Origin: an uncultured Duodenibacillus sp.
GTDB taxonomy: Bacteria; Pseudomonadota; Gammaproteobacteria; Burkholderiales; Burkholderiaceae_F
Length of the DNA stretch: 64,000 bases
NCBI GenBank assembly: GCA_944390745.1
Contig: CALXQK010000012.1
Coordinates: forward strand, 343-64,342
Reading direction: 5' to 3'
A program made the translations under genes and the position numbers. This document shows, one piece after another, positions 27,305 to 64,000 of this stretch; the first letter of the stretch is position 1; every line of letters starts with the position of its first letter. The notes below the pieces were generated by a model. That model saw only the letters and a program-made list of their open reading frames with translations, was not told the DNA's origin and searched no databases.

Positions 27305-27307
27305 AAA

Positions 27308-39796: not shown

Positions 39797-39823
39797 GATT
39801 CAAGCTTCCTATCTTTCGCCTTC

Positions 39824-40627: not shown

Positions 40628-40628
40628 G

Positions 40629-41564: not shown

Positions 41565-41580
41565 GACGGATTCCTTCTTC

Positions 41581-43415: not shown

Positions 43416-43590
43416 TTTAACCAGTCTCCCTTTTTTGCGTCCTTGTACACCGGCCCTGAAAACGTGCGCCGCCCTGCAGAAGCTGCAGCGCGGCGCGCCT
43501 TGAGGCCTTCTCTGACGGATTGTCGCCCGACCCGCACGCATGAATCAAGTCCCGCGCGGGCATGCGCAGGGGCCGGGACGGCCTTGATGA

Positions 43591-44061: not shown

Positions 44062-44131
44062 CGACTCCTCCTTGGAACTGTGCAGGGCGCGTGCCGCGCG
44101 CTGCGAAAGGAATTGCTGATTCCCCGGCAGG

Positions 44132-44158
44132 GGAAGGGGTGGAAGGGGTGGAAGGTGT
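44132..44158. repeat. Tandem 9-bp repeat x3 in the nrfD-like/nosL intercistronic spacer
   Basis: GGAAGGGGT GGAAGGGGT GGAAGGTGT on the plus strand. On the transcript this is ACACCUUCC ACCCCUUCC ACCCCUUCC. Confidence 0.6.
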
Positions 44159-44254
44159 GAAAAAGTGCCCCAGCCGGGCGTGCGCCGAAATCCGGACGCA
44201 CGCTCAGACTGAAGCAGTTGAGGCATCCTGCGGGGGTTCCCGCAGGGCCGGGCA

Positions 44255-45175
44255 CTAGATGCTGTAGAGCTGTCCAGCGTAAAGGATGAACAGACGCAGG
44301 CACATCATGCCCGTCACCGACGCCAGACCCGAGAGGTAGAACGCCGTGGAGTTCTTCGCGCCGCTCAGAAGAATCGGCACGAGGAATCCGACGCCCACCA
44401 CGCCGATCCAGAACTCGGTTGCCCAGGCGCCCGTCGTAAAGGCCTGCGCCGCAGCCTGAGCCGCAGCGTTGCCGCTGATGAGGGCCACCGCGATCATGAA
44501 GATGCAGAGCGCCTCGGCGGCCATGATCGGCCATTCGGCGCCGTGCAGAAGCTTCAGATCGGCCGAGTGCTGATCCGCACCGAACATGCCCGCGGCCACC
44601 ATCTTGGAGGCGGCGGCGCCGGCCGAAAGACCGGAGGCGACGAACAGCGCCGGCAGAACGGCCTGGTTGATCAGCGGGAAGCGGATCAGAGCCGAGATGA
44701 GAAAGCCCGTGTAGGCGCAGATGGTGAGCGCCAGCACCAGCACGATCCACTGCAGACCGCAGCGATGCGCATCAAACCAGCCGATGATTCCGTCAAGGAA
44801 GCCAATCTTGAAGTCATCGCGCAGCGCCACGAGCATCAGGATGCACACGAGCGGGATGTAGCCAAGCAGCGCCATCACGCCCAGACTCATCACGGAGGTC
44901 GGGTTGTAGTAGATGAGAATCCGCCAGAAATTGAGCGGATTGGTCAGGTCGAGCACCAGGCACACCATGCCGAGCACGATGGTCACAAAGCCGATCAGCG
45001 TTGCGGCCTTCAGCAGGGGCGTGTTGTCCCTTGTCTGCCTGCGGTAGAGGTTCATCATGATTGCCGTTGCGACGGCGCCGCCCGAGATGCCTGCCAGAAA
45101 CAGGTAGACGGCGATGGGCCACGGCCAGCTGATGCCCTCACTCAGACCCAGTGTAAAGTTCAACGCGATGTCCAT
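44255..45175 (-). CDS. NrfD/PsrC-family membrane quinol dehydrogenase subunit (MccD/SirD-like)
   Basis: 306-aa ORF with about 8 TM segments. NrfD-type N-terminus 'WPWPIAVYLFLAGISGGA'. It starts 3 nt after the NrfC-like gene. Confidence 0.8.
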   Translation of the reverse strand: MDIALNFTLGLSEGISWPWPIAVYLFLAGISGGAVATAIMMNLYRRQTRDNTPLLKAATLIGFVTIVLGMVCLVLDLTNPLNFWRILIYYNPTSVMSLGVMALLGYIPLVCILMLVALRDDFKIGFLDGIIGWFDAHRCGLQWIVLVLALTICAYTGFLISALIRFPLINQAVLPALFVASGLSAGAAASKMVAAGMFGADQHSADLKLLHGAEWPIMAAEALCIFMIAVALISGNAAAQAAAQAFTTGAWATEFWIGVVGVGFLVPILLSGAKNSTAFYLSGLASVTGMMCLRLFILYAGQLYSI

Positions 45176-45177
45176 CT

Positions 45178-45864
45178 TTACACTCCTTTCTTAACAATGG
45201 GGATGTAGCGCAGCGACGGCTTCGTGCCGAGTTCCGGGCGGATGCGCACGGAATCCTTCACGGCCAGCAGACGGCTGACGTAGGACTTCGGGTCGTTGAT
45301 GTCGCCGAAGATCAGCGCGTCGTACTTGCAGCTCTCCACGCAGGCGGGCTGCTGCTGCTTCTCAAGCCGGGTATGCAGACAGAAGTCGCAGTTGTCGGCG
45401 ACCTTGGTCTCCTCATTGATGAAGCGTGCGTTGTAGGGGCAGGCCACGATGCAGTACTTGCAGCCCACGCACTTCGAGGCGTCCATCGTGACGATGTTCG
45501 TCTTCGGGTCGCGATATGCGGCTCCCGTCGGGCAGACGGTCACGCACGGGGCGTTCTCGCACTGCTGGCAGGAAACACGCACATAGCGGCGCTGGGCCTG
45601 GTAGCCGCGATCGCCCTCGATTCTGTCGCCCTGCAGTTCCAGAATGAGACGCGTGCGGCCCTTGGGCAGCTTGTTGGTCTCATTGCAGGCATCCCTGCAG
45701 TCGCGGCAGCCGACGCACTTGTTCTGGTCAAAGACCATCACATAGTGAGGCTGTTTGCCGTCGCCCGTTTTTCCGCCCGTTCCGCACCCCGCAAGGGGAA
45801 GGACGAGCAGCGAGCTGGCACCGGCACCTAGGAGAAACCTTCTCCTGTCGATTCTTTCGCTCAC
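45178..45864 (-). CDS. NrfC-like Tat-exported four-cluster Fe-S protein (MccC/SirC-like)
   Basis: Tat signal 'MSERIDRRRFLLGAGAS'. 'CVGCRDCRDAC', 'CQQCENAPCVTVCPTGA', 'CVGCKYCIVACPYNA', 'CDFCLH...PACVESCKYDA'. Confidence 0.85.
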   Translation of the reverse strand: MSERIDRRRFLLGAGASSLLVLPLAGCGTGGKTGDGKQPHYVMVFDQNKCVGCRDCRDACNETNKLPKGRTRLILELQGDRIEGDRGYQAQRRYVRVSCQQCENAPCVTVCPTGAAYRDPKTNIVTMDASKCVGCKYCIVACPYNARFINEETKVADNCDFCLHTRLEKQQQPACVESCKYDALIFGDINDPKSYVSRLLAVKDSVRIRPELGTKPSLRYIPIVKKGV

Positions 45865-45918
45865 ATTTTTCTCCAGAAGCGAATCCCGCTGCGATGCAGC
45901 TGCAGCCGGATCCGCCGA

Positions 45919-46584
45919 TTAGTCTTGCTGTCGAGCTCTCGACTCGGCGTTGGCAATGGCATTGCGAAGCGCTCTTGTCTGCGCGGGGGCTGCGCCCGAA
46001 TCGAGCAGCATCCTCCACTGGGCGATCGCCTCTTCATAGCGGCCGTTCAGAAACGCGTCCTGCCCAAGCAGCATGCGCGTCTGGACGTCGAGCCTGTTCA
46101 AGGCAAGCGCCTGGTCTGCGGCGGCGCGGGCTTCGCCGGACATCCGGCGCCCGTCGCGGTAGTACAGCGCGTAGGCCGTCTTGCCGTAGAGCTCCGCCCG
46201 GGGCCCCGACAGCCCGATGGCCGCACGGTAGTCCTCGACGGCCTCCCGGTAAAAGCCCGCCTCAAGGTGGGCGTCTCCGAGCGCAACTCTTGCCGCTGCG
46301 CTTTGAGGGGCCATCTTCACGCGCCGCTGCGCCTCGGTGATCTGGGTGGTGAGCAGATATCCCACGTCGTGGTTCGTCTTCTCAACCTGCCAGTCAGACC
46401 ACCGGCCGAGCGAGGCGTAGCCCGCCGCACTCAGCACGAAGGTCACGGCCGCGAATGCCGCCATGAACGTTCTTGCGCCCGGTGTTCCCCTGCCCCGCCT
46501 GCGGTAGTCGACCGCAAGCACCGCCGTCCAGCCGAGGCCGACGACAAGCACGAGCACCGTCAATGCGTTCATGCAGTCCGCCAT
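45919..46584 (-). CDS. TPR-repeat protein, NrfG/CcmI-like haem-lyase specificity factor
   Basis: N-terminal TM segment ('ALTVLVLVVGLGWTAVLAV') followed by TPR-like repeats ('ALGDAHLEAGFYREAVEDYRAAIGL', 'GQDAFLNGRYEEAIAQWRMLL'). Confidence 0.6.
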   Translation of the reverse strand: MADCMNALTVLVLVVGLGWTAVLAVDYRRRGRGTPGARTFMAAFAAVTFVLSAAGYASLGRWSDWQVEKTNHDVGYLLTTQITEAQRRVKMAPQSAAARVALGDAHLEAGFYREAVEDYRAAIGLSGPRAELYGKTAYALYYRDGRRMSGEARAAADQALALNRLDVQTRMLLGQDAFLNGRYEEAIAQWRMLLDSGAAPAQTRALRNAIANAESRARQQD

Positions 46585-46608
46585 GTTTTCAAAGAGCGCT
46601 CCCCGTCA

Positions 46609-47376
46609 TTACTGATGGGGATTCTTCATGCCTTCGAGGTTTGCACCGCCGAAGTTCTGATGAGCTCCGACCTTGTCAACCTTGACCAACTCCAGCTCGA
46701 AGACGAGCGGGGATTCCGGAGGAATCTGACCGGCGCCATCAGCCCCGTAGGCGAGGTTGGCGGGGATCGTGAAGCGATAGCGCGATCCCTGGGGCATCAG
46801 GCGGATGCCCTCCTCAAGCCCGGGAATGATGGTCATGAGAACAAACTTCGCAGGCTGCTTGGTCTCATAGGTGCTCTCAAACACCGTGCCGTCCATGAGC
46901 GAACCGACATAGTTGACCGTGACGACGTCCTCGGTCTTTGCCTGCGGACCCGTGCCCTTCTTGAGCACTTCGTACTGCAGGCCGCTCTTGGTGACGACCA
47001 CGCCCTTCTTCTTGGCGTTCTTTGCAAGGAAGTCCTTCGCCTTGGCCGAGTTCTCGGCGGCGATCTTCTTCTTGTGCGCCTCGTAGAGCTTGTTGAGCCC
47101 CTCGGCGCGGGTGTTGAGGAACTTGAGCACGTCGTCGTCGTTCAGCCGGCTCTTGCCGCGCAGCGCTTCTTCAAAGCCCTGCACCACGAGATCCATGTTG
47201 ACCGGCGCACCGAGCTCGGTCTGCTTGAAGATCTGATCGGAGAGGTAATTGCCGACGGAGGCACCCATGCTGTAGGACTCCTTGTCCTGCTGGGTCTGAA
47301 GGCCGGCGGCAAAAGCCGTCGAGCCGGCGAGGAGCGCAGCGCAGGCGCACAGCACAATTTTCTTCATGGCGATCAT
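46609..47376 (-). CDS. Periplasmic FKBP-type peptidyl-prolyl cis-trans isomerase (FkpA/MccB-like)
   Basis: Signal peptide 'MKKIVLCACAALLAGSTAFAAG'. FKBP_C block 'VTVNYVGSLMDGTVFESTY...FVLMTIIPGLEEGIRLMPQGSRYRFTIPANLAYG'. The start is 47376 or 47367. Confidence 0.8.
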   Translation of the reverse strand: MIAMKKIVLCACAALLAGSTAFAAGLQTQQDKESYSMGASVGNYLSDQIFKQTELGAPVNMDLVVQGFEEALRGKSRLNDDDVLKFLNTRAEGLNKLYEAHKKKIAAENSAKAKDFLAKNAKKKGVVVTKSGLQYEVLKKGTGPQAKTEDVVTVNYVGSLMDGTVFESTYETKQPAKFVLMTIIPGLEEGIRLMPQGSRYRFTIPANLAYGADGAGQIPPESPLVFELELVKVDKVGAHQNFGGANLEGMKNPHQ

Positions 47377-47438
47377 CTTTTCTTGTTCATTCTCACGAGG
47401 ACCCGCGAGGATCCGCGCATCCAAGGTCTTCAGGGGGT

Positions 47439-47879
47439 TTAGGGACGCTCGAACTTGTGTCCGGAGAGCTTCCAGCCGTAGATGCCGTCGGGCATCTGCA
47501 TGACGTTGGTGTAGCCGAGCTTCATCACCTCATAGGCGGCGATTTCGCTCGAGCTGCACAGGCGGTTGGCGCAGTAGAAGACGAGCGGCGCGTTCTTGTC
47601 GGCCGGCAGCAGCTTCTTCCAGTTGCCCACGTTGAAGAAGATCGCCCCCGGGATGTACCCGTCAGCCCAGATCTCCAGCGTGTTGACGTCATAGAAGGTC
47701 ACCTCGGGACGCTCGTGCAGCTTTTCGGCCTCAAAGATCGAAATCTGGTGAATGGCCTGGCTGTAGACCGGCGCCTCTTCAATGGGCGCGTCGCCTCCGG
47801 CCATCGCCGGCAGCGCGCACAGCCCCGCAGCGGCAGCCGCCGCCGCACCCGCAAGCAAACCCTTCAGATACGCTTTCAT
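47439..47879 (-). CDS. Periplasmic single-domain rhodanese-like sulfurtransferase
   Basis: Signal peptide 'AAAGLCALPAMAGG'. 'GYIPGAI', active-site loop 'FYCANRLCSSS', 'GYTNVMQMPDGIYGW'. Confidence 0.75.
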   Translation of the reverse strand: MKAYLKGLLAGAAAAAAAGLCALPAMAGGDAPIEEAPVYSQAIHQISIFEAEKLHERPEVTFYDVNTLEIWADGYIPGAIFFNVGNWKKLLPADKNAPLVFYCANRLCSSSEIAAYEVMKLGYTNVMQMPDGIYGWKLSGHKFERP

Positions 47880-48008
47880 GATTCCTTCGTATGTTGGCGG
47901 TCAGTGCCCTGCTCCTTGTCCGGGGCCGAAGCCCGGAGGGGATTCCCTCCGGGCCTGCGGCTTGACAGGGAGATTGCGCTGACAGCGGTTGATTGAGCCG
48001 AAAGCGGC

Positions 48009-50063
48009 TTACTTGGCGTCCTTCTTGGCTTCAACGAGCGGGAAGTCGCCCTTGTCGAGGATCTGCTGAGCCTGCGTGAGATAGGCGTTGGCCGTCTCGG
48101 CGCGAAGCTTCAGGTACTCGGGAGCGTGCACGCCCCAGGAGCCGTCCTTCTCGAGCTGCGTGGTGATGTCCTTGGACTTGTCAAGGAGCATCAGGATCTG
48201 GGTCTTGGCCTCGACCGGGACCTTCGTCACCTCAAGCAGCTTCATGATGCGTTCCTGGCTGGCAACGGCGGCCTTGTAGCCGTCCTTGACCGGGTTCTGC
48301 CATTCCACGACCTCGTCATAGATCTGCTGCTGGTCGGTGTACTGCAGACCCTTCTCGAGCTCGGACAGGAAGGCGCTGTGGCAGCCCTTGTTGTTCACCA
48401 CGCCCTGTTCAGCATTGGCCGTGCGGGCGCAGGACCACATCAGGTCGAGATAGCCGTGGCCTTCGTCATCGCGGGCAATGTGCCAGCCCTTGGAGTTCGA
48501 GGCGCGCGACTGGCCCTCGGCCGGATTCATCATCTTGGCCTTCGGGTCAACCTTGATGTTCCAGAGGTGAGAACGACGGACGGCGTCGAAGCCGGCCATG
48601 TCCGGACGCTGGATGGCCGTGAAGTTCTCGCAGCTCATCGTGAACGGCATATGGCAGTCGATGCAGTCGATGTCGGCATGGGTCTTGGTCTGGGCAACCA
48701 CATCAGCCTGCGTCTCGTGGCAGTCCTGGCAGGTCTTGCGGATGGCGGGCTTGGTGTAGTAGCTCTTCCAGTCGTTGGAGGTGACTTCATGCGGGTCGTG
48801 GCAGGTGACGCAGCGCATGCCCTTTTCATAGTGAACGGACATCATGAGCTGCGAGCCTTCCGTACCGCACGACGGGCAGGAGGACTTCGTCTTCACGTTG
48901 AAGCCCTTTTCAAGCTTGCCCTGTGCAGCCGGGTTCTTCAGGTCGCTTTCGACGAAGTTCGAGCGCTGGTGGCAGCGTTCGCAGTTGGTCTGGAAGCCGT
49001 TGCTTTCAGCACCGATCAGGTGGCCGCCGGCACCGTGGCACTCCTCGCAGGCGATGCCGCGGGAGATGGTGTGCTTCTGCAGTTCCTTCGGATTGCCGAG
49101 AGCGGCAAAGAACTCTTCCTTGGTCTTGAAGTCGAACTTGAAGGCGTGGCAGACCTCGCAGTACGAGCTTGCAGGCTGGAAGAGGAATTCCTTCTCATAG
49201 GACGAGCCGTAGGAGGTCATGCCCCACTGGTGCGAGGCCGAGCCGCCCATGGCCTTCATGTCGGTCGGGAAGTCCGGAATCACCTTCTGGATTTCCTTGG
49301 CGCGCTCCGGGGTGAGCCACTGGGCCCAGCCGCGGGAGAACTGGTTGCCGCCGGCAACGAGCGTGCCCGTGCCGTCGCGCAGCAGACCGTCGCGGATGTG
49401 ATAGGCGCCGCGAACGAGCCAGGCGTCGATGTAGCCGTACTTCGTGCGGGGCGTGCCGACCGTCGCGTAGATCACGTCGGGCGTGATGCCGTCGGGAAGA
49501 ATCGAGGCCTGCGAGCCGTAGAGCTTCTTCTTGAGGTCGTTGTCGACTTCAGGATGCTCGCCCGGGAAGCGGATCGTCTGGGCATGACGGCTTCTCTTCC
49601 ACTTTTCATACTGCACGGCATGGCACTCGCCGCAGCGCTCCGGACCGACGAAGCGGTTCGGGAAGTCGAGAATCGACTTCGCGGCCAGGCGGTACTGGGA
49701 GGCCTTCGGACGACCGCCCGAGAGCTGCGAGTACTTCTGGGCGTTGCCTTCGCCAAGGAACTCGGAGCCGCGGGTGGAAATCTTGTAGACGCCCTTGATG
49801 CGGCCCTCTTCGGCGTACTTGAAGACCGGGTGGTTTTCAAAGAGCCACTCGAAGAGTTCCTTTTCCTGCACGATGTAGTCCTGCAGGGTGCGCACGCCGA
49901 TCGTGCTCTCCGTCGTGGACGGATTGTCAAAAACCTTCTGCGTCAAGGCGTTGAACTGTTTGTTGCCAACGCCAGGAGCATCAGCAGCCTGGGCACCGGC
50001 AGCAACCATGGCCGCCGTGCAAAACAGGGCGCTCGCCGCTGTTTTGATCATTGTTGTTGTCAT
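48009..50063 (-). CDS. mccA: Octahaem cytochrome c sulfite reductase, MccA/SirA type
   Basis: Signal peptide. Seven CXXCH motifs (CGECH, CEVCH, CEECH, CERCH, CVTCH, CQDCH, CIDCH) plus one CX15CH ('[18 protein letters not shown]'). 684 aa. The genomic context of NrfCD-like, FKBP, NosL and a dedicated haem lyase fits the family. Confidence 0.85.
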
Positions 50064-50595: not shown

Positions 50596-52389
50596 CTACT
50601 TCGCGCTCTTCAGCCCAAGGGCGTACTGCGCGGCATGCTCGCCGCTGCGGCGCCCGAAGACCACCGTGTCGGCGATGGCGTTTCCGCCGAGACGGTTGAA
50701 CCCGTGCACGCCGCCCGTGACTTCACCGGCGGCATAAAGTCCCGGAATCGGCCGGCTCTGGATGTCGAGCAACTCGCTCTGGGGCGTGATTGCCACGCCG
50801 CCCATCGTGTGGTGGATGCCGGGCGCGACGGCAACGGCGTAGTACGGCGCCTTTTCAATGCCAAGCGGCATGTCGGGGCGCCCGAAGGCCTCGTCCTTGC
50901 CCGCCTTGCGGTAGGCGTTGTAGCTGCGGACCGTCCCGGCGAGCGTTGCGGGATCCATCCCGCAGGTCTCGGCAAGCTTTTCAATCGTGTCGGCCTTCTT
51001 GAGCATGCCGAGGTGGTCGTAGCCGCGCACCATCTTGGCCGAGTTGTACAGATCGCTGTCAAAGACAAGCCAGGCGCGACGCTCGGGCTGATGCAGGATG
51101 GCGTCGCTTGCGCGGTCGCGCGTGGTGAGCTCATTGACAAAGCGCGCGCCCTTGATGTTGACCATGATGGCGCCGACGCCGCGCACGGTCTCGCTGATCA
51201 GAATGCGGCTGTCGAGCCCCACGGTCGGATGCGCCTGCACCCAGTCGATGTCGGTCATGCTCGCGCCGATGTTGAGCGCCATCGTGATGCCGTCGCCCGT
51301 GCTCGTCACGTTGTTCGAGCTGGTCATGTTCTTGAAGGTCGGACGGTAGAAGGCAATCATCTGCTTGTTCTGTCCGTAGCCGCCGGTGGCGAGCACCACC
51401 GCGCGGGCGGCGATCTTGTAGTAGCCCGAGTGCTTGCCGTGCACGATGGCTCCGGCAATCTTGAAGTCCTTGTCAAGCAGCAGCTTGACGGCGCGCGAGT
51501 TCACGCGGGCCCCGACGCCCTCCTTGGTCGCCTCGGCGCGCAGCACGTCCACAATGTGCGGACCCACGGACATGCCGCCGTGCGGACGGTGCGTGCGGCT
51601 GACCGTAGCGCCGCCCGAGCGCTTGACGTCCGAGAGGTCCGCTCCCATGTCCTCGAGCCACTTCACGCCCGAGGCGCTCTGCTCGGCGAGAATTCTCACC
51701 AGCTGCGGATCATTCTTGCCGCGGCCGCCCTTCATGGTGTCCTTCACATAGAGGTCCACCGAGTCCTTGATGCCCTTCTTGGCCTGCTGGGGCGTTCCGA
51801 CGGCGTTGTAGCCGCCGGCGGCAAGCATCGAGTTGCCGCCCGCGTAGGCGTGCTTTTCAAGCAGCACCACGCTCGCACCGGCGCGCTTGGCGGCAATGGC
51901 GGCATTGAGTCCGGCCGAGCCCGCCCCGATCACGAGCACGTCGACCGTTTCGCGCGGCGCGGCGGCCTCGGCGGCGGCCACGGCCTTTTCATCAATTCCG
52001 TCGTCCCAGGCCGGCCTTGCGGCTGCATCGGCAAAGGGCATCTTCATGTCGAAGCTGTGGCAGTCGTTGCAGATCAGCTTGGGCTGCGCGTGCCCGGCGT
52101 GGCAGACCGTGCAGTTGATGGGGCTGCGGTCGCTCAGGTGGCTGTTGTGCGGATCAAAGCGCTTGCTCTTGTCGGCAAGCTTCTTGTAGTCGCCGTGGCA
52201 GGTCATGCACTTGCCGTTGATGTCGATCTCATCGTCGGGCACGTCGGCGGCCGTCACGGAACTGGCGCCGTGGCAGGTCTGGCAGCCTCCGAGCTTGTTG
52301 TGAAAGGAGGCCAGGTCCTCGGCGCCGGCTGCCGCCGCACCAAGCGACAGAAGAGCCGAAAGCACGAGCGCGGCTGCGGGTTTCATCAT
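50596..52389 (-). CDS. Periplasmic flavocytochrome c (tetrahaem + FAD), fumarate/2-enoate reductase family
   Basis: ATG at 52389 with AGGAG upstream. Signal peptide. CQTCH, CMTCH, CTVCH, CNDCH. 'VLVIGAGSAGLNAAIAA'. Catalytic-type blocks 'ISETVRGVGA', 'HHTMGGV' and 'GEVTGGVHGFNRLGGNA'. Confidence 0.85.
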   Translation of the reverse strand: MMKPAAALVLSALLSLGAAAAGAEDLASFHNKLGGCQTCHGASSVTAADVPDDEIDINGKCMTCHGDYKKLADKSKRFDPHNSHLSDRSPINCTVCHAGHAQPKLICNDCHSFDMKMPFADAAARPAWDDGIDEKAVAAAEAAAPRETVDVLVIGAGSAGLNAAIAAKRAGASVVLLEKHAYAGGNSMLAAGGYNAVGTPQQAKKGIKDSVDLYVKDTMKGGRGKNDPQLVRILAEQSASGVKWLEDMGADLSDVKRSGGATVSRTHRPHGGMSVGPHIVDVLRAEATKEGVGARVNSRAVKLLLDKDFKIAGAIVHGKHSGYYKIAARAVVLATGGYGQNKQMIAFYRPTFKNMTSSNNVTSTGDGITMALNIGASMTDIDWVQAHPTVGLDSRILISETVRGVGAIMVNIKGARFVNELTTRDRASDAILHQPERRAWLVFDSDLYNSAKMVRGYDHLGMLKKADTIEKLAETCGMDPATLAGTVRSYNAYRKAGKDEAFGRPDMPLGIEKAPYYAVAVAPGIHHTMGGVAITPQSELLDIQSRPIPGLYAAGEVTGGVHGFNRLGGNAIADTVVFGRRSGEHAAQYALGLKSAK

Positions 52390-52694
52390 CTCAATCTCCT
52401 GATTGCCGGCGTCTCGACGACTCGCCCGATGAATCCCGCGCCCCGCCCCTTTGCCTGGGAGCGTGCGGCGACGATGCGAATGCGCTGAAAGCCGGTCCGT
52501 TGCTTTCCTCCGGAACGCTTCCCGGAGGGGTGTGAAATTTGAAGCAAGGGCGCGACGCACGCATGCGCCGCGCCCCGGATCAGGCTTTCAGTCTAGGTTA
52601 AGGATGTTCCCGTCCAATTGACGGGCATCAAGGCAAAAATTCTTTTTATTTCAAAGTTCTAAACGAGCTTTAAGTTTTTCTTAAAACCGTCGCC

Positions 52695-59004: not shown

Positions 59005-60648
59005 TTACTCATGCCGTCCGCAGCCCGGGCCCGGAGCAGCCGGCTGCCGGGCCTCGCCGAGCAGCCCCAGCTTGATGAGGCGGCTGCGCATCGTGTTGGG
59101 ATTCATGCCCGCCAGACGCGCGGCGCCGTGCGCGCCCGAAATGCGCCCCTCGGTCAGATCGAGCAGCCTGCTGAAGTACTGCCGCTGCATCGTCTCGAAA
59201 TCCACGGCCTCAAGGCAGGAGGCCGCCGGCGGCCGCGCCTGCGCCTGCGCCTGCGCTTCACCCTCCGGCGCAGGCGGCGCAGCCTTGATTCGAGCCGCGC
59301 CGGCAGCAGCGTCCGGGGCGGCCCCCTGGGAGCCGTCATCGAGCACAAGCCGCACGCCGTGCGCCGAGCCCTGGGCGCTGAGCCCCGAGCGGATCACGGC
59401 GTTTCTGAGCTCGCGCACATTGCCCGGCCAGCGCCAGGCGCGCGCATCGGCCAGCAGCGCCGGCACGAAGTTCTCGGGCAGCGGCACGTGAAAGCGCTCC
59501 TTGACCTCCTGGGCAAACAGCGCGATCAGCGGCTCGAGATCCTCCGGGCGCTCCCGCAGCGGAGGAATGTGCAGCCGCAGCACGTTGAGGCGGTAGTACA
59601 GATCGAGTCGAAAGAGCTTCTTGTCGACCAGCTCCGAAAGACTGCGGTTGGTGGCCGAGATGATGCGCACGTTGATCGGAATCTCCACCGTGCCGCCCAC
59701 GCGTCGAATGGCCTGGTTCTGCAGCACGTGCAGCAGCTTGCCCTGCATGGCAAGCGGCAGCTCGCCGATTTCATCAAGAAAGATCGTCCCGCCGTCGGCC
59801 TCCTCAAAAAGGCCCCGGCGCATGCGCCGCGCGTCGGTAAAGGCGCCCGCCTCATAGCCGAAGAGCTCGGCCTCGATGAGCGCCTCGGGGATCGCCGCGC
59901 AGTTGACGCGCACAAAGGGCCGCATGGCGCGCGAGGACATGTTGTGAATCGCGGTGGCAAGCACCTCCTTGCCGGTGCCCGACTCGCCCGTGATGAGCAC
60001 CGGCACCGGGTAGCCCGCCGCCTGCTTGATGAGCGGGGCGAGCATCCGCATGGAGGGCGAGCGGCGCACGAGCTCGGCCAGAGGCGAGCTCTTGGCCAGG
60101 GCAAGCGTCTGCATCAGCTCCCTGTTGATGCTCTCAATCCTGCGGCTGCGCCGGTCCAGCCGGATGCCCAGCGCAAAGCCCACCTGCAACGACAGCAGCG
60201 TCCGAAGCCAGGACACGGCCCGCGCCTCCCGGTCATGGAATGCCCCGGGTCTCGTGCTGTAGAAGCACACGACGCCGAGGTGGCGCTCCTCAATCTGCAG
60301 CGAGATCAGAATGAAGCTGCGGATGCCTGCAATGACCTTTCCGGCTGCCGTGCGCGTAAAGGGATCCTGCGCGATGTCCTCAACCACCGTGACGCCGTCC
60401 GGGTGCGTCGCCGGCAGCGGCCGCACCCCCGCGGGAACGGCCGCGACGTCGCTGAGCTCCCGGGCGTCCCGGCGCGTGGCATGCGCAAGAAACCACACCT
60501 CGGAGGTCTCGGCAACAAACGTATTGGCAAAGACCCCCTCGGCCGGGAATTCGTCTCCGAGGGCCGCCAGCCCCTTTTGCAGCGCCTGCGGCAGCAAGAG
60601 CGTGCTTGAAAACGCCGACGCCACGGCCCACCGATCCACCCAGACCAT
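59005..60648 (-). CDS. Sigma-54-dependent transcriptional activator (GAF sensor + AAA+ + Fis-type HTH)
   Basis: 'ITGESGTGKEVLA' (Walker A), 'GAFTDA' (variant GAFTGA), 'GGTIFLDEIGE' (Walker B), 'WPGNVRELRN'. C-terminal HTH 'GAARLAGMNPNTMRSRLIKLG'. I prefer the ATG at 60648, with AGGAGG upstream. Confidence 0.85.
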   Translation of the reverse strand: MVWVDRWAVASAFSSTLLLPQALQKGLAALGDEFPAEGVFANTFVAETSEVWFLAHATRRDARELSDVAAVPAGVRPLPATHPDGVTVVEDIAQDPFTRTAAGKVIAGIRSFILISLQIEERHLGVVCFYSTRPGAFHDREARAVSWLRTLLSLQVGFALGIRLDRRSRRIESINRELMQTLALAKSSPLAELVRRSPSMRMLAPLIKQAAGYPVPVLITGESGTGKEVLATAIHNMSSRAMRPFVRVNCAAIPEALIEAELFGYEAGAFTDARRMRRGLFEEADGGTIFLDEIGELPLAMQGKLLHVLQNQAIRRVGGTVEIPINVRIISATNRSLSELVDKKLFRLDLYYRLNVLRLHIPPLRERPEDLEPLIALFAQEVKERFHVPLPENFVPALLADARAWRWPGNVRELRNAVIRSGLSAQGSAHGVRLVLDDGSQGAAPDAAAGAARIKAAPPAPEGEAQAQAQARPPAASCLEAVDFETMQRQYFSRLLDLTEGRISGAHGAARLAGMNPNTMRSRLIKLGLLGEARQPAAPGPGCGRHE

Positions 60649-60692
60649 CCCTTCCCTCCTTTTTCCCAACCGCGCAAAGTCCCTGCAATTTA

Positions 60693-60760
60693 CGAAATAT
60701 CGAAAAGCTCCCGACCAGAGAAAAAATAACGATATTTCGCCAATTTTTCACGAAATATCG
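60693..60760. promoter_or_regulatory. Three copies of a 10-mer (candidate upstream activator sequences for the sigma-54 activator)
   Basis: CGAAATATCG at 60693-60702 and 60751-60760, and its reverse complement CGATATTTCG at 60730-60739. They lie 110-180 bp upstream of the -24/-12 element. Confidence 0.4.
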
Positions 60761-60872
60761 TGTTTCTGTTTTCGTACAACCCGGCACAGCCTCTTCAAAA
60801 GGGCCGGCGCGCCCGCCTGCGCAGTCTGAAGCATTTCTTAACCAGATGGGTTTTTATTCGTTTTTTGAATTC

Positions 60873-60888
60873 TGGCACGCATTTTGCA
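60873..60888 (+). promoter_or_regulatory. Sigma-54 (RpoN) -24/-12 promoter
   Basis: TGGCAC-GCATT-TTGCA matches the TGGCAC-N5-TTGCW consensus exactly. It lies about 80 nt upstream of the ATG at 60970 and next to a divergent sigma-54 activator gene. Confidence 0.7.
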
Positions 60889-60969
60889 TCCTGAAAAGAA
60901 ACCTCGCCTCAATGGCGAGGGCCGGCCTGCGCCGGAGAAACCCAGCACACCCCTTTGGAGTTCAGATAC

Positions 60970-62481
60970 ATGACACAGACCATCTCGCGCCGCCACCTTC
61001 TTGCCGCCGGCGCAGCGAGCGCCGTTGCAGGCGCCGCGGGCACCGCCTCCGCCGCCCAGGGTAAGCCGAAGTTTGACAAGATTGTCGACATCATCGTCGT
61101 CGGCTCGGGCTTTGCCGGCCTTGCCGCCGCACTCGAGGCGCGTCTTGGCGGCGCCGAGGTGATGCTCCTTGAAAAGATGCCCGCCTTCGGCGGCAACTCC
61201 GCCATCAACGGCGGCGCCTTCTCTGTGGCCGGAAGCCCCCTGCAGAAGAAGTTCGGCATCAAGGACTCGCCCGAGCAGATGCTCGCCGACATGATCCGCT
61301 CCGGCCGCGGCCTCTCGCACGTCGACCTGCTCAAGATGGTGGTCAACGGATCGCTGCCGGCCTACGAGTTCACGCTGCGACACGGCGTCAAGTACAAGGA
61401 CTTCGTACAGCACTTCGGCGGCCACTCCGTGCCGCGCACGCTGCAGACGGTCGAGAGCACCGGCGGCGGCATCACCCGGCCGCTGACGGAGTCCTGCCGC
61501 AAGCACGGCGTCGACCTGCACCTGCGCGCCAAGATGGAGGACTTCGTGCGCGACGAATCCGGCCGCGTGATCGGCCTCGTTGTGCGCGAGCGCTATCTCT
61601 TCCCCAACGAGAAGTCGGGCGTTCTGCAGACCTACGGCGCGCGCCGCGGCGTGATCATGGCCACGGGCGGCTTCTCGCGCAACATCTGGTTCAGAAAGCA
61701 GCAGGATCCCAACCTCGACGAGCGTCTGGACTCGACCAACCATCCCGGCGCCACGGGCGAGGGCATGCTCAAGATGTTTGCCATCGGCGGCGCCCCCGTG
61801 CAGGTCGACCAGATCCAGCTCGGCCCCTGGAGCTCGCCCGACGAGCGCGGCTTCGGCCTTGTCTCGCAGTTCAACACCATCGCCGGCTTCCCCATGGGCA
61901 TCATGGTTGACGTGCGCACCGGCAAGCGCTTCTGCAACGAGCTTGCCGACCGCAAGGAGCGCACCGACGCCATTCTCGGCCAGATGGAAAACGGCAAGCC
62001 CGTCTACCCCGTGTGCTTTACCGACAGCAAGGGCGTGGCCAAGGCCCAGACCCTCAAGAACGGCCTGAAGTACGGCGTCATCAAGCAGTTCAACACGATC
62101 GCCGAGCTCGCCCGCGCCTACGGCATCCCCGTCAAGGGACTCGAGGAGCAGGTCGCGCGCTGGAACCAGATGGTGCGCAGCAAGAAGGACACCGATTACC
62201 ACCGCGCGCTCGACCTGGCCATCGTGCTCGACAAGCCGCCGTTTTACGCCGCGCGCGTCTGGCCCAAGGTGCACTACTGCATGGGCGGCGTGGGCATCAC
62301 GCCCAGAGCCGAGGTCTATGACGTCATGGGCAGGGTGATCCCCGGTCTTTACGCCTGCGGCGAAGTCACCGGCGGCACCCACGGCGCGAGCCGTCTCGGC
62401 GGGTGCGCGATTGCCGACGGCCTCGTGATGGGCCGCGTCGCTGCCGACAACTGCCTCAAGAACAAGCCCGTGACGCTCTAA
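60970..62481 (+). CDS. Tat-exported FAD flavoprotein, flavin subunit of a split flavocytochrome c (fumarate/2-enoate reductase family)
   Basis: 'MTQTISRRHLLAAGAASAVAGAAGTASA' (Tat signal), 'DIIVVGSGFAGLAAALEA', 'GEVTGGTHGASRLGGCA'. The active-site block reads 'HYCMGG' rather than 'HHTMGG'. Confidence 0.8.
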   Translation: MTQTISRRHLLAAGAASAVAGAAGTASAAQGKPKFDKIVDIIVVGSGFAGLAAALEARLGGAEVMLLEKMPAFGGNSAINGGAFSVAGSPLQKKFGIKDSPEQMLADMIRSGRGLSHVDLLKMVVNGSLPAYEFTLRHGVKYKDFVQHFGGHSVPRTLQTVESTGGGITRPLTESCRKHGVDLHLRAKMEDFVRDESGRVIGLVVRERYLFPNEKSGVLQTYGARRGVIMATGGFSRNIWFRKQQDPNLDERLDSTNHPGATGEGMLKMFAIGGAPVQVDQIQLGPWSSPDERGFGLVSQFNTIAGFPMGIMVDVRTGKRFCNELADRKERTDAILGQMENGKPVYPVCFTDSKGVAKAQTLKNGLKYGVIKQFNTIAELARAYGIPVKGLEEQVARWNQMVRSKKDTDYHRALDLAIVLDKPPFYAARVWPKVHYCMGGVGITPRAEVYDVMGRVIPGLYACGEVTGGTHGASRLGGCAIADGLVMGRVAADNCLKNKPVTL

Positions 62482-62519
62482 GCGGTTCGCCTCGAGACTT
62501 TGAAAAGGACGTACGAAAA

Positions 62520-62894
62520 ATGATGAACCCCAAGCACCTCTTTGCTCTTTTCGGTCTTTGCGGCGTTCTTGCCGCGGCCGCGCTGCCGGCCGGCGCCGCA
62601 GGACTGCAGATGTCCAAGCACCACGCCGCCGTCATCAAGGACTGCGCGGTGTGCCACACGCAGGACAACGCCGTTGCCGGCAATGCCTTCGTCGTGCCCG
62701 ACGACAAGGTCTGCATGAGCTGCCACGGCAGCTACGAAGCGCTTGCCAAGAAGACCGAGAATCTCTCCGAACCCAACCCGCACCGCTCGCACCACTACGG
62801 CACGGGACTGTCCTGCACGGCCTGCCACGCCGAGCACAGCCAGCCCAGGGCCTACTGCAACGAGTGCCACGAGTTCAAGTACACGATGCCCTGA
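62520..62894 (+). CDS. Small periplasmic tetrahaem cytochrome c (haem subunit of the split flavocytochrome)
   Basis: ATG at 62520. Signal peptide. CAVCH, CMSCH, CTACH, CNECH within 124 aa. Confidence 0.8.
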   Translation: MMNPKHLFALFGLCGVLAAAALPAGAAGLQMSKHHAAVIKDCAVCHTQDNAVAGNAFVVPDDKVCMSCHGSYEALAKKTENLSEPNPHRSHHYGTGLSCTACHAEHSQPRAYCNECHEFKYTMP

Positions 62895-63019
62895 TTTTTT
62901 CAAGCTGCGGGCATAAAGGGCCCCCTGCAGAGGCCGGTTCCCGGGGCCTCTGCAGCCGGCACCCTTGAGCCCGCGGCTCACAGTCAACGTCAATCAACTC
63001 ACACCAGAGGAAGAAAAGC

Positions 63020-64000
63020 ATGAACAAGTTTCTAAAGGTCACCGCCATGACTGCAGCCATGATTGCCTGCGGCTCGCTCAGCGCGGCCACGATCACGCTC
63101 GACGGCAAGAGCCTCACGATGGAGGATGCCTGGAAGATTGCCAACAACGAGGCTGACGTGGCCATCTCGCCCAAGGCGATGAAGCTGCTCGACGACAGCT
63201 ACAAGCTCGTGATGGCCTCGGCCGCCGCCGGCCAGGCCGTCTACGGCCTCACCACGGGCGTGGGCCTCAACAAGGACCACAAGCTCTTTGACGCCAACGG
63301 CAAGCTCTCCGATGCCGTGATCAAGGCCTCGCGCGACTTCAACTACAACGCGCTGCGCTCGCACTCGGCCGGCGTGGGCAAGATGATGCCCACCAACCTC
63401 GCCCGTCTGTCGATGGTCGTGCGCCTGAACACGCTGCTCGACGGCAAGTCCGGCGCCCAGCCGCGCGTGGCCGAGCTCTACCGCGACATGCTCAACAAGG
63501 GCGTCACGCCGCTCATCCCCTCCGAGGGCTCGATCGGTGAGGCCGACATTCTGCTTGCCTCGCACGTCGGCGCCGTGATGATCGGCGAGTGGAAGGCCGA
63601 GGTGAAGGGCAAGGTCGTCGACGGCAAGACCGCCCTGAAGAACGCCGGCATCAAGCCGCTCGTTCCCGAGGGAAAGGATGCCCTCGCCATCCTGTCGAAC
63701 AACTCGGTGGCCATGGCCTACGCCATTGACGCCGCGCGCAACGCCCGCCAGATCCTCAACGTCACGCCCGTCGTCTACGGCCTCTCGCTTGAGGGCCTCA
63801 ACGGCAACGTCGCCCCGATCCTCCCGCAGACGGTCGGCGCCCGTCCCTTTGAAGGCCTCTCGCAGACCGCCGCTGACCTGCGCAGCGCCCTCAAGGGGTC
63901 CTATCTGTGGAAGGCCGACGACGCCCGTCCGCTGCAGGATCCGCTGTCCTACCGCGTGACCGTCTACGGCCTGTCTGAAGCCCGCCGCGCCCTGAAGGAT
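63020..64000 (+). CDS. Signal-peptide-bearing histidine/phenylalanine ammonia-lyase (HAL/PAL) family homologue lacking the Ala-Ser-Gly MIO triad; partial, continues beyond the window
   Basis: This ORF is not in the ORF track because it has no stop in the window. I translated it by hand: open from the ATG at 63020 to 64000 (327 codons). Family blocks 'VYGLTTGVG', 'NALRSHSAGVG', 'RLNTLLDGKSG', 'LQDPLSYRV'. Where 'GSVGASGDLAPL' is expected it reads 'GSIGEADILLAS'. N-terminal 'MNKFLKVTAMTAAMIACGSLSAA'. Confidence 0.75.
   Translation, partial: MNKFLKVTAMTAAMIACGSLSAATITLDGKSLTMEDAWKIANNEADVAISPKAMKLLDDSYKLVMASAAAGQAVYGLTTGVGLNKDHKLFDANGKLSDAVIKASRDFNYNALRSHSAGVGKMMPTNLARLSMVVRLNTLLDGKSGAQPRVAELYRDMLNKGVTPLIPSEGSIGEADILLASHVGAVMIGEWKAEVKGKVVDGKTALKNAGIKPLVPEGKDALAILSNNSVAMAYAIDAARNARQILNVTPVVYGLSLEGLNGNVAPILPQTVGARPFEGLSQTAADLRSALKGSYLWKADDARPLQDPLSYRVTVYGLSEARRALKD

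What the first reader, a model, noticed from the sequence alone, without database searches (positions are those of the whole stretch)
59005..64000. Sigma-54-controlled locus pairing a periplasmic 2-enoate-reductase-type flavocytochrome with a periplasmic ammonia-lyase homologue
The gene order is GAF-bEBP (divergent), sigma-54 promoter, Tat flavoprotein, tetrahaem cytochrome c, HAL/PAL-family protein with a signal peptide. Ammonia lyases convert His, Phe or Tyr to urocanate, cinnamate or coumarate. These are exactly the class of alpha,beta-unsaturated acids that periplasmic flavocytochromes of this family respire (for example urocanate to imidazole propionate). The locus therefore looks like a module for using an amino-acid-derived enoate as terminal electron acceptor. 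Every component is predicted to be extracytoplasmic, which is unusual. A GC-rich hairpin (62925-62955) separates the cytochrome and lyase-like genes. The locus continues past the window end.
Basis: inference. Interest (0 to 1): 0.65.

Follow-up and report, generated by a model that had tools for sequence, protein, structure and literature searches.

The report
Periplasmic ergothioneine-respiration operon in gut Sutterella
This locus of an uncultured human-gut Sutterella most likely splits the dietary antioxidant ergothioneine into trimethylamine and thiourocanate in the periplasm and then respires the thiourocanate; the same kind of module was described in Shewanella in 2025-2026, so this is a new member of a known kind.

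Summary
These are a divergent GAF-type sigma-54 activator, a perfect -24/-12 promoter, a Tat-exported FAD flavoprotein, a tetrahaem cytochrome c, a GC-rich hairpin and a signal-peptide-bearing HAL/PAL-fold protein that runs off the window end.

The general idea, a lyase that makes an enoate for a periplasmic flavocytochrome to respire, holds. The chemistry proposed does not. The lyase lacks the Ala-Ser-Gly triad that forms the MIO cofactor, so it cannot be a His/Phe/Tyr ammonia-lyase. Its best sequence and fold match is Treponema denticola ergothionase, and it keeps the thiolate-binding Lys (K437).

The flavoprotein carries all six residues published for the thiourocanate pocket of Shewanella oneidensis SO_3058. 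It lacks both acidic imidazole ligands of urocanate reductase UrdA.

Among 64 Lys-type lyases from other genomes, 62 lie within 2.5 kb of this reductase type. The GAF activator and the sigma-54 promoter recur from Sutterella to Shewanella and Ferrimonas.

The locus is therefore an orthologue of the SO_3056-3058 ergothionase/thiourocanate-reductase module. A 2026 preprint already lists a Sutterella orthologue. No activity has been tested in any Sutterella.

Verdict: ordinary but topical.

The parts
59005..60669 (-). Sigma-54 enhancer-binding protein (GAF-like sensor, AAA+ domain, C-terminal DNA-binding region), divergent from the operon. Gene callers start it at M8 (547 aa) or slightly later (543 aa).
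   Evidence: Pfam Sigma54_activat E 3.5e-68, weak GAF. GAF supported across orthologues. Full-length orthologues (residues ~14-537 aligned) sit beside the operon in Sutterellaceae, Shewanella and Ferrimonas.
60692..60760 (.). Candidate upstream activator sites: three copies of (A/G)CGAAATATCG at 60692-60702 (+), 60730-60740 (-) and 60750-60760 (+), 113-196 bp upstream of the -24 element.
   Evidence: Three matches against 0.38 expected, all in this intergenic region. CGAAATATCG/CGATATTTCG recurs upstream of orthologous operons in Sutterella, Parasutterella and Turicimonas. Binding by the activator is inferred.
60873..60888 (+). Sigma-54 -24/-12 promoter, TGGCACGCATTTTGCA.
   Evidence: Unique consensus match in the window (0.08 expected). 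TGGCAY-N5-YTGCW is found at the same place in most Sutterellaceae, Shewanella and Ferrimonas loci that carry the divergent activator. No sigma-70-like site in 60500-64000.
60902..60920 (+). Short GC-rich stem-loop in the predicted 5' untranslated region (CCTCGCCTCAATGGCGAGG).
   Evidence: Picked up by the terminator scan on the minus strand and read from the sequence. Function unknown.
60970..62481 (+). Tat-exported FAD subunit of a flavocytochrome c 2-enoate reductase; predicted thiourocanate reductase, orthologue of S. oneidensis SO_3058.
   Evidence: TIGR01813 485 bits. Tat motif SRRHLL. 57% identical to the S. cutis protein that matches SO_3058. Pocket residues Q159, W287, F295, S299, Q300, T303 equal SO_3058 Q168, W296, F304, S308, Q309, T312. 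R328/H435/R475 equal UrdA R411/H520/R560. UrdA E177 and D388 are replaced by A83 and Q300.
62520..62894 (+). Small periplasmic tetrahaem cytochrome c, the electron-input subunit of the reductase (orthologue of SO_3056).
   Evidence: Cytochrom_c3_2 E 8.5e-16. Four CXXCH at residues 42, 65, 99 and 113, plus a signal peptide. Present within 2.5 kb of all 64 Lys-type lyases.
62903..62978 (+). Intercistronic stem-loop (core 62925-62955) between the cytochrome and lyase genes, with no U-tract.
   Evidence: dG -59.9 kcal/mol, z -4.7; unique in the window; not called as a terminator. Stable stem-loops of unrelated sequence occupy the same spacer in many Sutterella species. Parasutterella and Turicimonas have only a 23-30 nt spacer.
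63020..64000 (+). Periplasmic MIO-less HAL-fold lyase; predicted ergothionase (ergothioneine trimethylammonia-lyase). The first 326 of 554 codons lie in the window.
   Evidence: PF00221 E 1.9e-80. SIGEADI replaces the Ala-Ser-Gly motif. Best PDB sequence hit is ergothionase 6s7j, E 4e-75. AF2 model pLDDT 86.5, best fold hit 6s7j with TM 0.90. Y75, H115, Q306, R312, N337, E465 and K437 are conserved; the last four lie beyond the window end in the 99.98%-identical contig L005.

Best explanation
The locus is a sigma-54-controlled, fully periplasmic module for respiring ergothioneine.

1. Ergothioneine enters the periplasm, probably through the porin encoded just downstream of the window.
2. The Sec-exported MIO-less lyase eliminates trimethylamine from it and gives thiourocanate.
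3. The Tat-exported FAD subunit reduces the C2=C3 double bond of thiourocanate to the saturated thio-imidazole propionate.
4. The reductase receives electrons from the quinol pool through its tetrahaem cytochrome c partner. No dedicated quinol dehydrogenase lies in the locus itself.
5. The divergent GAF-type enhancer-binding protein binds the repeated CGAAATATCG sites and opens the sigma-54 promoter when the substrate or its product is present.

Shown here: gene content, export signals, absence of the MIO motif, conservation of catalytic and specificity residues, fold, co-conservation of the genes, and conservation of the promoter.

Inferred: the substrate, the respiratory role, the inducer, the role of the porin and co-transcription.
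For: - Lyase, MIO and closest relative: there is no Ala-Ser-Gly. The best sequence match (E 4e-75) and best fold match (TM 0.90) is T. denticola ergothionase.
- Lyase, specificity residue: K437 aligns with Td Lys384, which is needed to bind the ergothioneine thiolate (10.64898/2026.04.22.720169). That position is Asn in the histidine-betaine lyase Swoo_3913 and Gln in SO_3299.
- Lyase, catalytic residues: Y75, H115, Q306, R312, N337 and E465 match the residues listed for Swoo_3913 at a constant offset of 2.
- Reductase: all six published SO_3058 pocket residues are present. The carboxylate triad is present, and UrdA's acidic ligands E177 and D388 are replaced by Ala and Gln. It is 57% identical to the S. 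cutis orthologue of SO_3058, against 35% to UrdA. That orthologue shares SO_3058's length of 517 aa, its C-terminus and its residue numbering.
- Covariation: 62 of 64 Lys-type lyases in other genomes have this reductase type within 2.5 kb, and all 64 have the small cytochrome. The Asp-type paralogues instead sit beside UrdA-like reductases (10 of 12), and the Val-type Enterococcus ones have neither.
- Regulation: the activator, the sigma-54 promoter and the repeat motif are conserved.
- Export: a Tat motif on the flavoprotein and Sec signals on the other two.
- Experiment in the orthologous system: SO_3057 is an ergothionase with kcat/Km 2.8e6 M-1 s-1. Ergothioneine induces it about 300-fold under anoxia and supports anaerobic growth of S. 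oneidensis.
Against: - No activity has been measured for any Sutterella protein.
- The thiourocanate reductase activity of SO_3058 itself rests on modelling and whole-cell methyl viologen oxidation, not on purified enzyme.
- Overall identity does not separate substrate classes. The window lyase is 55-56% identical to the Shewanella Lys-type, the Sutterellaceae Asp-type and the Enterococcus Val-type alike.
- The Lys-type is not monophyletic in a neighbour-joining tree (1 of 200 bootstraps). The assignment therefore rests on one specificity residue plus the partner reductase.
- The sensor is cytoplasmic while the pathway is periplasmic, so how the inducer is sensed is unexplained.
- The strong hairpin between the cytochrome and lyase genes could uncouple their expression.
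Confidence: 0.68

Rival explanations
1. The module respires histidine betaine (hercynine). The lyase would make urocanate and the flavocytochrome would be a urocanate reductase, as in Shewanella woodyi Swoo_3912/3913.
For: The layout is the same: a periplasmic MIO-less lyase next to a periplasmic enoate reductase. UrdA is the best PDB hit of the flavoprotein (E 5e-77).
Against: The histidine-betaine lyase has Asn at the Lys384 site, whereas this protein has Lys. The reductase lacks the FMN_bind domain and both acidic imidazole ligands of UrdA (A83, Q300) and carries the SO_3058 pocket instead. In Sutterellaceae a separate paralogous lyase sits beside a true UrdA-like reductase. Characterised ergothionases do not convert hercynine.
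Confidence: 0.1
2. The substrate is another N-alpha-trimethylated histidine derivative with a substituent the Lys can bind, such as selenoneine or S-methyl-ergothioneine, or a ring-methylated betaine as for SO_3299.
For: The family has diversified. Lys, Asn, Gln, Asp and Val variants occur at the specificity site, and SO_3299 uses N(pi)-methyl histidine betaine. Residue-level inference cannot tell S from Se.
Against: SO_3299-type enzymes have Gln at the site and a reductase with a different pocket. Lyase and reductase here both match the ergothioneine/thiourocanate signatures exactly.
Confidence: 0.12
3. One reading: a periplasmic His/Phe/Tyr ammonia-lyase feeds urocanate, cinnamate or coumarate to the flavocytochrome.
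For: The protein has the PF00221 fold and weak sub-threshold hits to HutH and PAL models.
Against: The Ala-Ser-Gly triad needed for MIO is absent. All NCBIfam ammonia-lyase and aminomutase models score far below their cut-offs (181 against 524 bits for HAL). The related MIO-less enzymes Swoo_3913, SO_3057 and SO_3299 showed no ammonia-lyase activity.
Confidence: 0.02
4. The locus serves to scavenge or detoxify ergothioneine, for example as a nitrogen or sulfur source or to remove thiourocanate, and not for energy-conserving respiration.
For: Classical ergothionases are catabolic enzymes.
Against: Those are cytoplasmic. Here all three proteins are exported, and the reductase is a cytochrome-linked flavocytochrome of the respiratory type. 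The window is full of respiratory genes. Ergothioneine supports anaerobic growth through the orthologous system in S. oneidensis.
Confidence: 0.06

Closest known systems
Shewanella oneidensis so_3056-3058 (ergothionase SO_3057 plus flavocytochrome c SO_3056/3058); Bertsova et al., bioRxiv 10.64898/2026.04.22.720169
   Same: A periplasmic MIO-less lyase with the Lys384-equivalent, a split flavocytochrome (Tat FAD subunit plus small multihaem cytochrome), and an identical thiourocanate-pocket signature. In Shewanella relatives there is also a divergent GAF sigma-54 activator and a sigma-54 promoter.
   Different: The gene order differs: flavoprotein-cytochrome-lyase here, flavoprotein-lyase-cytochrome in Shewanella. 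The proteins are only 55-57% identical. The host is an obligately host-associated gut betaproteobacterium. A porin gene follows the lyase and a strong hairpin precedes it. Nothing has been tested here.
Shewanella woodyi swoo_3912-3913 (urocanate reductase plus histidine betaine trimethylammonia-lyase); bioRxiv 10.1101/2025.08.13.670108
   Same: The same concept of a periplasmic betaine lyase feeding a periplasmic enoate reductase. The legend of its Fig. S1 already lists flavocytochrome subunits, a sigma-54 Fis-family regulator and porins as common neighbours.
   Different: That lyase has Asn at the specificity site and needs Mg2+. That reductase is a UrdA with an FMN_bind domain and acidic imidazole ligands.
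Treponema denticola ergothionase (PDB 6s7j)
   Same: Best sequence and fold match. There is no MIO, and the catalytic Tyr and the thiolate-binding Lys are kept.
   Different: It is cytoplasmic with no signal peptide, is 34% identical, lacks an insertion of about 27 residues present here (residues ~349-375) and is not coupled to a flavocytochrome.
Urocanate reductase UrdA (SO_4620, PDB 6t85-6t88) and flavocytochrome c3 fumarate reductases
   Same: The FAD_binding_2 fold and the Arg/His/Arg carboxylate triad with the proton-donor Arg (R328/H435/R475).
   Different: There is no FMN_bind or fused haem domain. E177 and D388 of UrdA are replaced by A83 and Q300, and a four-residue insertion carries T303.
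Gut ergothioneine catabolism by Clostridium symbiosum and cross-feeding of thiourocanate (as summarised in PMC13405746 and in 10.64898/2026.04.22.720169)
   Same: Ergothioneine is split into trimethylamine and thiourocanate, which serves as electron acceptor for gut anaerobes.
   Different: There the ergothionase is cytoplasmic, and thiourocanate is used by another organism or removed by a desulfhydrase. Here both steps sit in one periplasm.

Membership tests
MIO-dependent aromatic amino acid ammonia-lyases/aminomutases (HAL/PAL/TAL) | Ala-Ser-Gly triad that cyclises to the MIO electrophile | tested here: not met
   SIGEADI aligns with S-x-G-(ASG)-D-L; there is no Ala-Ser-Gly.
MIO-dependent aromatic amino acid ammonia-lyases/aminomutases (HAL/PAL/TAL) | PF00221 fold and catalytic Tyr base | tested here: met
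   PF00221 E 1.9e-80. Y75 is invariant. HAL structures match with TM 0.83-0.88.
MIO-dependent aromatic amino acid ammonia-lyases/aminomutases (HAL/PAL/TAL) | Passes a curated equivalog model (HutH, PAL, TAL, aminomutases) | tested here: not met
   The best score is 181 bits against a cut-off of 524 (NF006871), but only the 326-residue fragment in the window was scanned.
MIO-independent trimethylammonia-lyases: ergothionase | HAL fold without MIO; closest to a characterised ergothionase | tested here: met
   6s7j is the top hit by sequence (E 4e-75) and by fold (TM 0.90, E 4e-30).
MIO-independent trimethylammonia-lyases: ergothionase | Lys equivalent to Td Lys384 (thiolate binding); Asn or Gln in the non-thio betaine lyases | tested here: met
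   GAIQK(437)SF aligns with GTIQKTF. The Lys is conserved in at least 90% of the periplasmic relatives aligned in A1 and of the orthologues aligned in A3.
MIO-independent trimethylammonia-lyases: ergothionase | Carboxylate- and imidazole-binding residues and the Tyr base | tested here: met
   Y75, H115, Q306, R312, N337 and E465 match Swoo_3913 Y77, H117, Q308, R314, N339 and E467.
MIO-independent trimethylammonia-lyases: ergothionase | Converts ergothioneine to thiourocanate plus trimethylamine | not testable with these tools
   Needs an enzyme assay.
Periplasmic flavocytochrome c thiourocanate reductase (SO_3056/3058 type) | FAD_binding_2 subunit of the flavocytochrome c subfamily with a Tat signal, plus a separate small multihaem cytochrome | tested here: met
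   TIGR01813 485 bits against 285. SRRHLL motif. A 124-aa cytochrome with four CXXCH.
Periplasmic flavocytochrome c thiourocanate reductase (SO_3056/3058 type) | Pocket residues Gln168, Trp296, Phe304, Ser308, Gln309, Thr312 and proton donor Arg337 | tested here: met
   Q159, W287, F295, S299, Q300, T303 and R328, at a constant offset of 9. The numbering is identical in the S. cutis orthologue.
Periplasmic flavocytochrome c thiourocanate reductase (SO_3056/3058 type) | Genetic linkage to a Lys-type lyase | tested here: met
   62 of 64 loci; the two exceptions are a contig cut short and a deletion variant.
Periplasmic flavocytochrome c thiourocanate reductase (SO_3056/3058 type) | Reduces thiourocanate | not testable with these tools
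   Not shown with purified enzyme even for SO_3058.
Urocanate reductase UrdA | Acidic imidazole ligands (Glu177, Asp388) and an N-terminal FMN_bind domain | tested here: not met
   A83 and Q300 occupy those columns, and there is no FMN_bind domain.
Sigma-54 regulon unit (enhancer-binding protein plus -24/-12 promoter) | AAA+ Sigma54_activat domain, a GG-N10-GC promoter upstream of the target operon, and upstream repeats | tested here: met
   Activation itself was not tested.

The most novel reading that the evidence does not exclude
The GAF-domain enhancer-binding protein is inherited with this operon from Sutterella to Shewanella and Ferrimonas. It may be the dedicated sensor of ergothioneine or thiourocanate behind the roughly 300-fold induction seen in S. 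oneidensis. If so it would be a transcription factor that responds to this dietary antioxidant. It would also imply that the signal is imported or relayed from the periplasm into the cytoplasm. The lineage-specific hairpin before the lyase gene could further tune lyase against reductase so that thiourocanate does not accumulate.
Probability: 0.4. Interest if true: 0.5.

Novelty: new member of a known kind. Interest (0 to 1): 0.3.

Why it matters
Ergothioneine is a diet-derived cytoprotectant, and trimethylamine is the precursor of TMAO.

If the prediction holds, Sutterellaceae degrade ergothioneine, release trimethylamine and gain energy from it, all without importing the compound. Orthologues occur in Sutterella, Parasutterella, Turicimonas and Mesosutterella.

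The gene is common in metagenomes: single 90%-identity clusters of the lyase hold 2,083 and 2,938 member sequences.

A recent review of ergothioneine as a TMAO source does not mention these genera.

The 2026 Shewanella preprint already lists a Sutterella and a Turicimonas orthologue as putative systems. The finding therefore extends a published prediction and does not open a new field.

Tried and rejected
- A single-sequence AlphaFold model of the activator's N-terminal domain was unusable (pLDDT 36). The GAF call was settled with orthologue Pfam scans and a profile search of the PDB instead.
- Rfam and tRNA scans of the whole window found nothing, so the hairpin is not a known RNA family.
- The hairpin is not a canonical intrinsic terminator, because it has no U-tract. 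It is not a repeated element in the window. Its sequence is not conserved between species.
- I tried to use overall identity and a neighbour-joining tree to place the lyase with the characterised ergothionases. The Lys-type is paraphyletic and identity is uninformative, so this argument was dropped in favour of the specificity residue and the partner reductase.
- S. oneidensis itself was not among the 80 loci returned. Orthology to SO_3057/3058 was established indirectly, through S. cutis and S. xiamenensis-group proteins and the published alignment.
- The Escherichia sp. locus has no match in 5,426 complete E. coli genomes by megablast.
- An apparent cytochrome-lyase fusion (P0037/L012) is an in-frame deletion that truncates the cytochrome, not a functional fusion.

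Full report
**What is there**

The region holds one divergent regulator gene and one operon.
- The regulator (59005-60669, minus strand) has a Sigma54_activat AAA+ domain (E 3.5e-68) and an AAA lid.
- Its GAF match is weak in this protein alone. I aligned N-terminal domains of 19 orthologues from other genomes. Fourteen hit Pfam GAF_2 (best E 4e-9), and the profile hits a solved GAF domain (6oap, E 1.8e-6). The 'GAF-bEBP' label is therefore sound.
- The 300-bp intergenic region is the GC minimum of the neighbourhood (0.546).
- It holds the only match to TGGCAC-N5-TTGCW in the 64-kb window, at 60873-60888 (0.08 expected). This is 82 nt before the flavoprotein ATG.
- About 113-196 bp further upstream are three copies of (A/G)CGAAATATCG, two direct and one inverted (3 found, 0.38 expected). 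That is the usual layout of activator sites for an enhancer-binding protein.

The operon has three genes in the window.
- The first (60970-62481) encodes a 503-aa FAD protein with a twin-arginine motif (SRRHLL). It passes the flavocytochrome c subfamily model TIGR01813 (485 bits against a cut-off of 285).
- The second (62520-62894) encodes a 124-aa protein with a signal peptide and four CXXCH motifs.
- The third starts at 63020 and runs off the window. It encodes a PF00221 (HAL/PAL fold) protein behind a 22-residue signal peptide.
- The Cys in this signal peptide is not conserved in orthologues, whereas the A-x-A site before 'TITLDG' is. The protein is therefore probably soluble in the periplasm and not a lipoprotein.
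It has exact 11-bp arms at 62925-62955 (0.01 expected), inside a longer stem at 62903-62978 (dG -59.9 kcal/mol, z -4.7).

**Beyond the window end**

- The exact flavoprotein sequence occurs on 20 public contigs. Eight of them, fetched here, are 99.4-99.98% identical to the window over the shared stretch.
- They come from gut-type metagenome assemblies and one MAG (GCA_902490115.1).
- On these contigs the lyase is 554 aa and is followed after 155 nt by a 388-aa Porin_4 outer-membrane porin. After the porin comes either an MFS transporter or an acetyltransferase, depending on the strain.
- The nearest named genomes are Sutterella species. The closest genome in the collection gives 91% lyase identity, and close protein hits are labelled Sutterella sp..

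**What the lyase is**

- It is not an ammonia-lyase. Where HAL/PAL/TAL enzymes have G-S-x-G-Ala-Ser-Gly-D-L, it has G-S-I-G-E-A-D-I-L, so the MIO cofactor cannot form.
- All curated ammonia-lyase and aminomutase models score far below their cut-offs.
- The best solved relative by sequence is Treponema denticola ergothionase (6s7j, E 4e-75 for the full-length protein).
- An AlphaFold model built on 33 orthologues (pLDDT 86.5) also matches 6s7j best (TM 0.90), ahead of all histidine ammonia-lyases.

Two preprints from one group explain this class.
- MIO-less periplasmic 'trimethylammonia-lyases' remove trimethylamine from histidine betaines and feed the resulting enoate to a genetically linked periplasmic flavocytochrome.
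- Swoo_3913 of S. woodyi takes histidine betaine. SO_3057 of S. oneidensis takes ergothioneine. SO_3299 takes N(pi)-methyl histidine betaine.
- The residue they use to tell these apart is the one aligned with Td Lys384, which binds the ergothioneine thiolate. It is Lys in ergothionases, Asn in Swoo_3913 and Gln in SO_3299.
- The window protein has Lys there (K437, GAIQKSF against GTIQKTF).
- It also has the whole catalytic set Y75, H115, Q306, R312, N337 and E465, at a constant offset of 2 from the Swoo_3913 numbering.

**What the reductase is**

- Its best PDB hit is UrdA, but identity is only 35%.
- The carboxylate triad and proton donor are kept: R328, H435 and R475 match UrdA R411, H520 and R560.
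- UrdA's two acidic imidazole ligands are replaced. E177 becomes A83 and D388 becomes Q300.
- There is no FMN_bind domain.
- The 2026 preprint names Gln168, Trp296, Phe304, Ser308, Gln309 and Thr312 as the thiourocanate pocket of SO_3058, with Arg337 as proton donor.
- The window protein has Q159, W287, F295, S299, Q300, T303 and R328, an exact offset of 9.
- In S. cutis the orthologue has the published numbers themselves. It also shares the 517-aa length and C-terminus shown for SO_3058 in the preprint's supplement. The window protein is 57% identical to it.

**Co-conservation**

A scan of one genome per species returned 79 loci. I sorted the lyases by the residue at the Lys site.

| Residue at the Lys site | Lyases | Neighbouring reductase | Small cytochrome |
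|---|---|---|---|
| Lys | 64 | SO_3058 type (at least 53% identical to the window's), within 2.5 kb in 62 | all 64 |
| Asp | 12 | UrdA-like (FMN_bind plus FAD, Glu and Arg at UrdA positions 177 and 411), next to 10 | none |
| Val | 4 | none | none |

- The Lys-type lyases come from Sutterella, Parasutterella, Turicimonas, Mesosutterella, Shewanella, Ferrimonas, Citrobacter, Hafnia, Leminorella, Limnobaculum and others.
- The two Lys-type exceptions are a 3.3-kb contig and a deletion variant.
- The Asp-type lyases are a second paralogue in Sutterellaceae.
- The Val-type lyases are cytoplasmic proteins of Enterococcus.
- The specificity residue of the lyase therefore covaries with the type of reductase.

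Gene order varies between groups.
- Sutterellaceae: flavoprotein-cytochrome-lyase.
- Shewanella: flavoprotein-lyase-cytochrome, the so_3058-3057-3056 order.
- Ferrimonas and Enterobacterales: lyase-flavoprotein-cytochrome.

**Regulation**

- The activator is orthologous along its whole length, sensor domain included, in Sutterellaceae, Shewanella and Ferrimonas.
- A TGGCAY-N5-YTGCW element sits in front of the first operon gene in most of those loci.
- Enterobacterales loci lack both the divergent activator and the promoter element.
- The CGAAATATCG motif recurs in Sutterella, Parasutterella and Turicimonas.
- This fits the roughly 300-fold induction of ergothionase by ergothioneine under anoxia in S. 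oneidensis. The regulator is not discussed in the text I read, although the legend of the 2025 preprint's Fig. S1 lists a sigma-54 Fis-family regulator and porins among the common neighbours.
- How a cytoplasmic GAF sensor perceives a periplasmic pathway is not explained by anything I found.

**The hairpin**

- It has no U-tract and is not scored as a terminator.
- No sigma-70-like promoter follows it, and the lyase gene has a good Shine-Dalgarno sequence.
- Stable stem-loops of unrelated sequence occupy the same spacer in many Sutterella species. One (L016) is followed by a T-run.
- S. wadsworthensis has a 47-nt spacer without a stable structure, and Parasutterella and Turicimonas have only 23-30 nt.
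- A similar U-less hairpin lies between the lyase and porin genes.
- I read these as intercistronic structures that affect mRNA stability or relative expression, not as operon boundaries. Co-transcription remains untested.

**Caveats**

- No Sutterella protein has been assayed.
- The thiourocanate reductase assignment of SO_3058 itself rests on modelling and whole-cell data.
- The window lyase is 55-56% identical to the Lys-, Asp- and Val-type groups alike.
- In a neighbour-joining tree the Asp and Val groups nest inside the Lys-type radiation. The three together form a clade in 174 of 200 bootstraps, and the Lys-type alone in 1 of 200.
- Lys looks ancestral, since it is also found in T. denticola. 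The substrate call rests on that one residue plus the partner reductase, not on phylogenetic position.

**Novelty**

- The kind of system is known from the 2025 and 2026 preprints.
- The 2026 supplement lists Sutterella megalosphaeroides SUTMEG_07030 and strain YL45 among 'putative thiourocanate reductases' in operons with ergothionase genes. Its discussion names Sutterella and Turicimonas.
- The study of respiratory reductases in S. wadsworthensis does not mention ergothioneine or the lyase. A 2026 review of ergothioneine as a TMAO source does not mention Sutterella.
- The window therefore holds a new, untested member of a known kind.
- This analysis adds four points for Sutterellaceae: the conserved sigma-54/GAF regulatory unit with its repeat motif, the porin, the covariation between lyase residue and reductase type, and the second paralogous module.

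Noticed in passing
L040, L041, L043, L045, L050, L055, L057, L064 (also L010 2219-3871, L019 995-2629, L056 5204-6787): Sutterella, Parasutterella and Turicimonas carry a second periplasmic MIO-less lyase paralogue. It has Asp (motif GATED) at the Lys site. In most of these loci it lies next to a UrdA-like FMN_bind+FAD reductase, and in several there is an MFS transporter nearby. In three genomes it lies within a few kb of the Lys-type module. This looks like a separate betaine-respiration module with an unknown substrate, possibly hercynine.
   Followed up: partly
L036 3410-12987 (also L035, L048, L083): Enterococcus species have a cytoplasmic homologue, 55-56% identical, with Val at the Lys site. 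In L036, the one locus examined, it sits in a cluster with a PAS-type sigma-54 activator, a CoA-transferase, an MFS transporter and an NMO/FMN enoyl-reductase-like protein. This may be a cytoplasmic, CoA-dependent variant of the same theme.
   Followed up: partly
L012 ~7600-9614; protein cluster P0037 (211 member sequences): In one Sutterella lineage an in-frame deletion joins a truncated cytochrome (two CXXCH left) to the lyase at its signal peptide, and the flavoprotein gene is missing. This is a decayed copy of the locus, not a true fusion.
   Followed up: partly
window 50596-52560 (-): A second flavocytochrome c with a fused N-terminal cytochrome c3 domain (Fcc3 architecture). It is 35% identical to the operon's flavoprotein, and its substrate is unknown.
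   Followed up: no
window 37874-50063 (-): A respiratory gene block: CcmF, an ABC-2 permease and an ABC ATPase (NosY/NosF-like by position next to NosD and NosL), NosD, NosL, NrfD-type membrane protein, 4Fe-4S protein, CcmH-like TPR protein, FKBP isomerase, rhodanese and a 684-aa multihaem cytochrome. The NrfCD-like pair could be a quinol dehydrogenase for periplasmic reductases. No nosZ gene was identified.
   Followed up: no
window 24623-27901 (+): A molybdopterin oxidoreductase (893 aa) with a 4Fe-4S partner, downstream of a LysR regulator gene (23108-24082, minus strand). This is another candidate respiratory reductase.
   Followed up: no
window 60902-60920: A seven-pair GC-rich stem-loop in the predicted 5' untranslated region between the sigma-54 promoter and the flavoprotein start codon.
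   Followed up: no
L047 8001-11700; proteins P0312, P0319, P0322: Lys-type lyases labelled Escherichia coli or E. marmotae exist in the protein collection. An Escherichia sp. genome carries the lyase-flavoprotein-cytochrome cluster, yet none of 5,426 complete E. coli genomes matches it by megablast. This bears on old reports of ergothioneine degradation by E. coli extracts.
   Followed up: partly
L004 5424-5578 (downstream of the window end): Another U-less hairpin (GCCGCAGTTTC ... GAAACTGCGGC) lies between the lyase and porin genes. Downstream of the porin, the gene content differs between strains of the same species (MFS transporter or GNAT acetyltransferase).
   Followed up: partly
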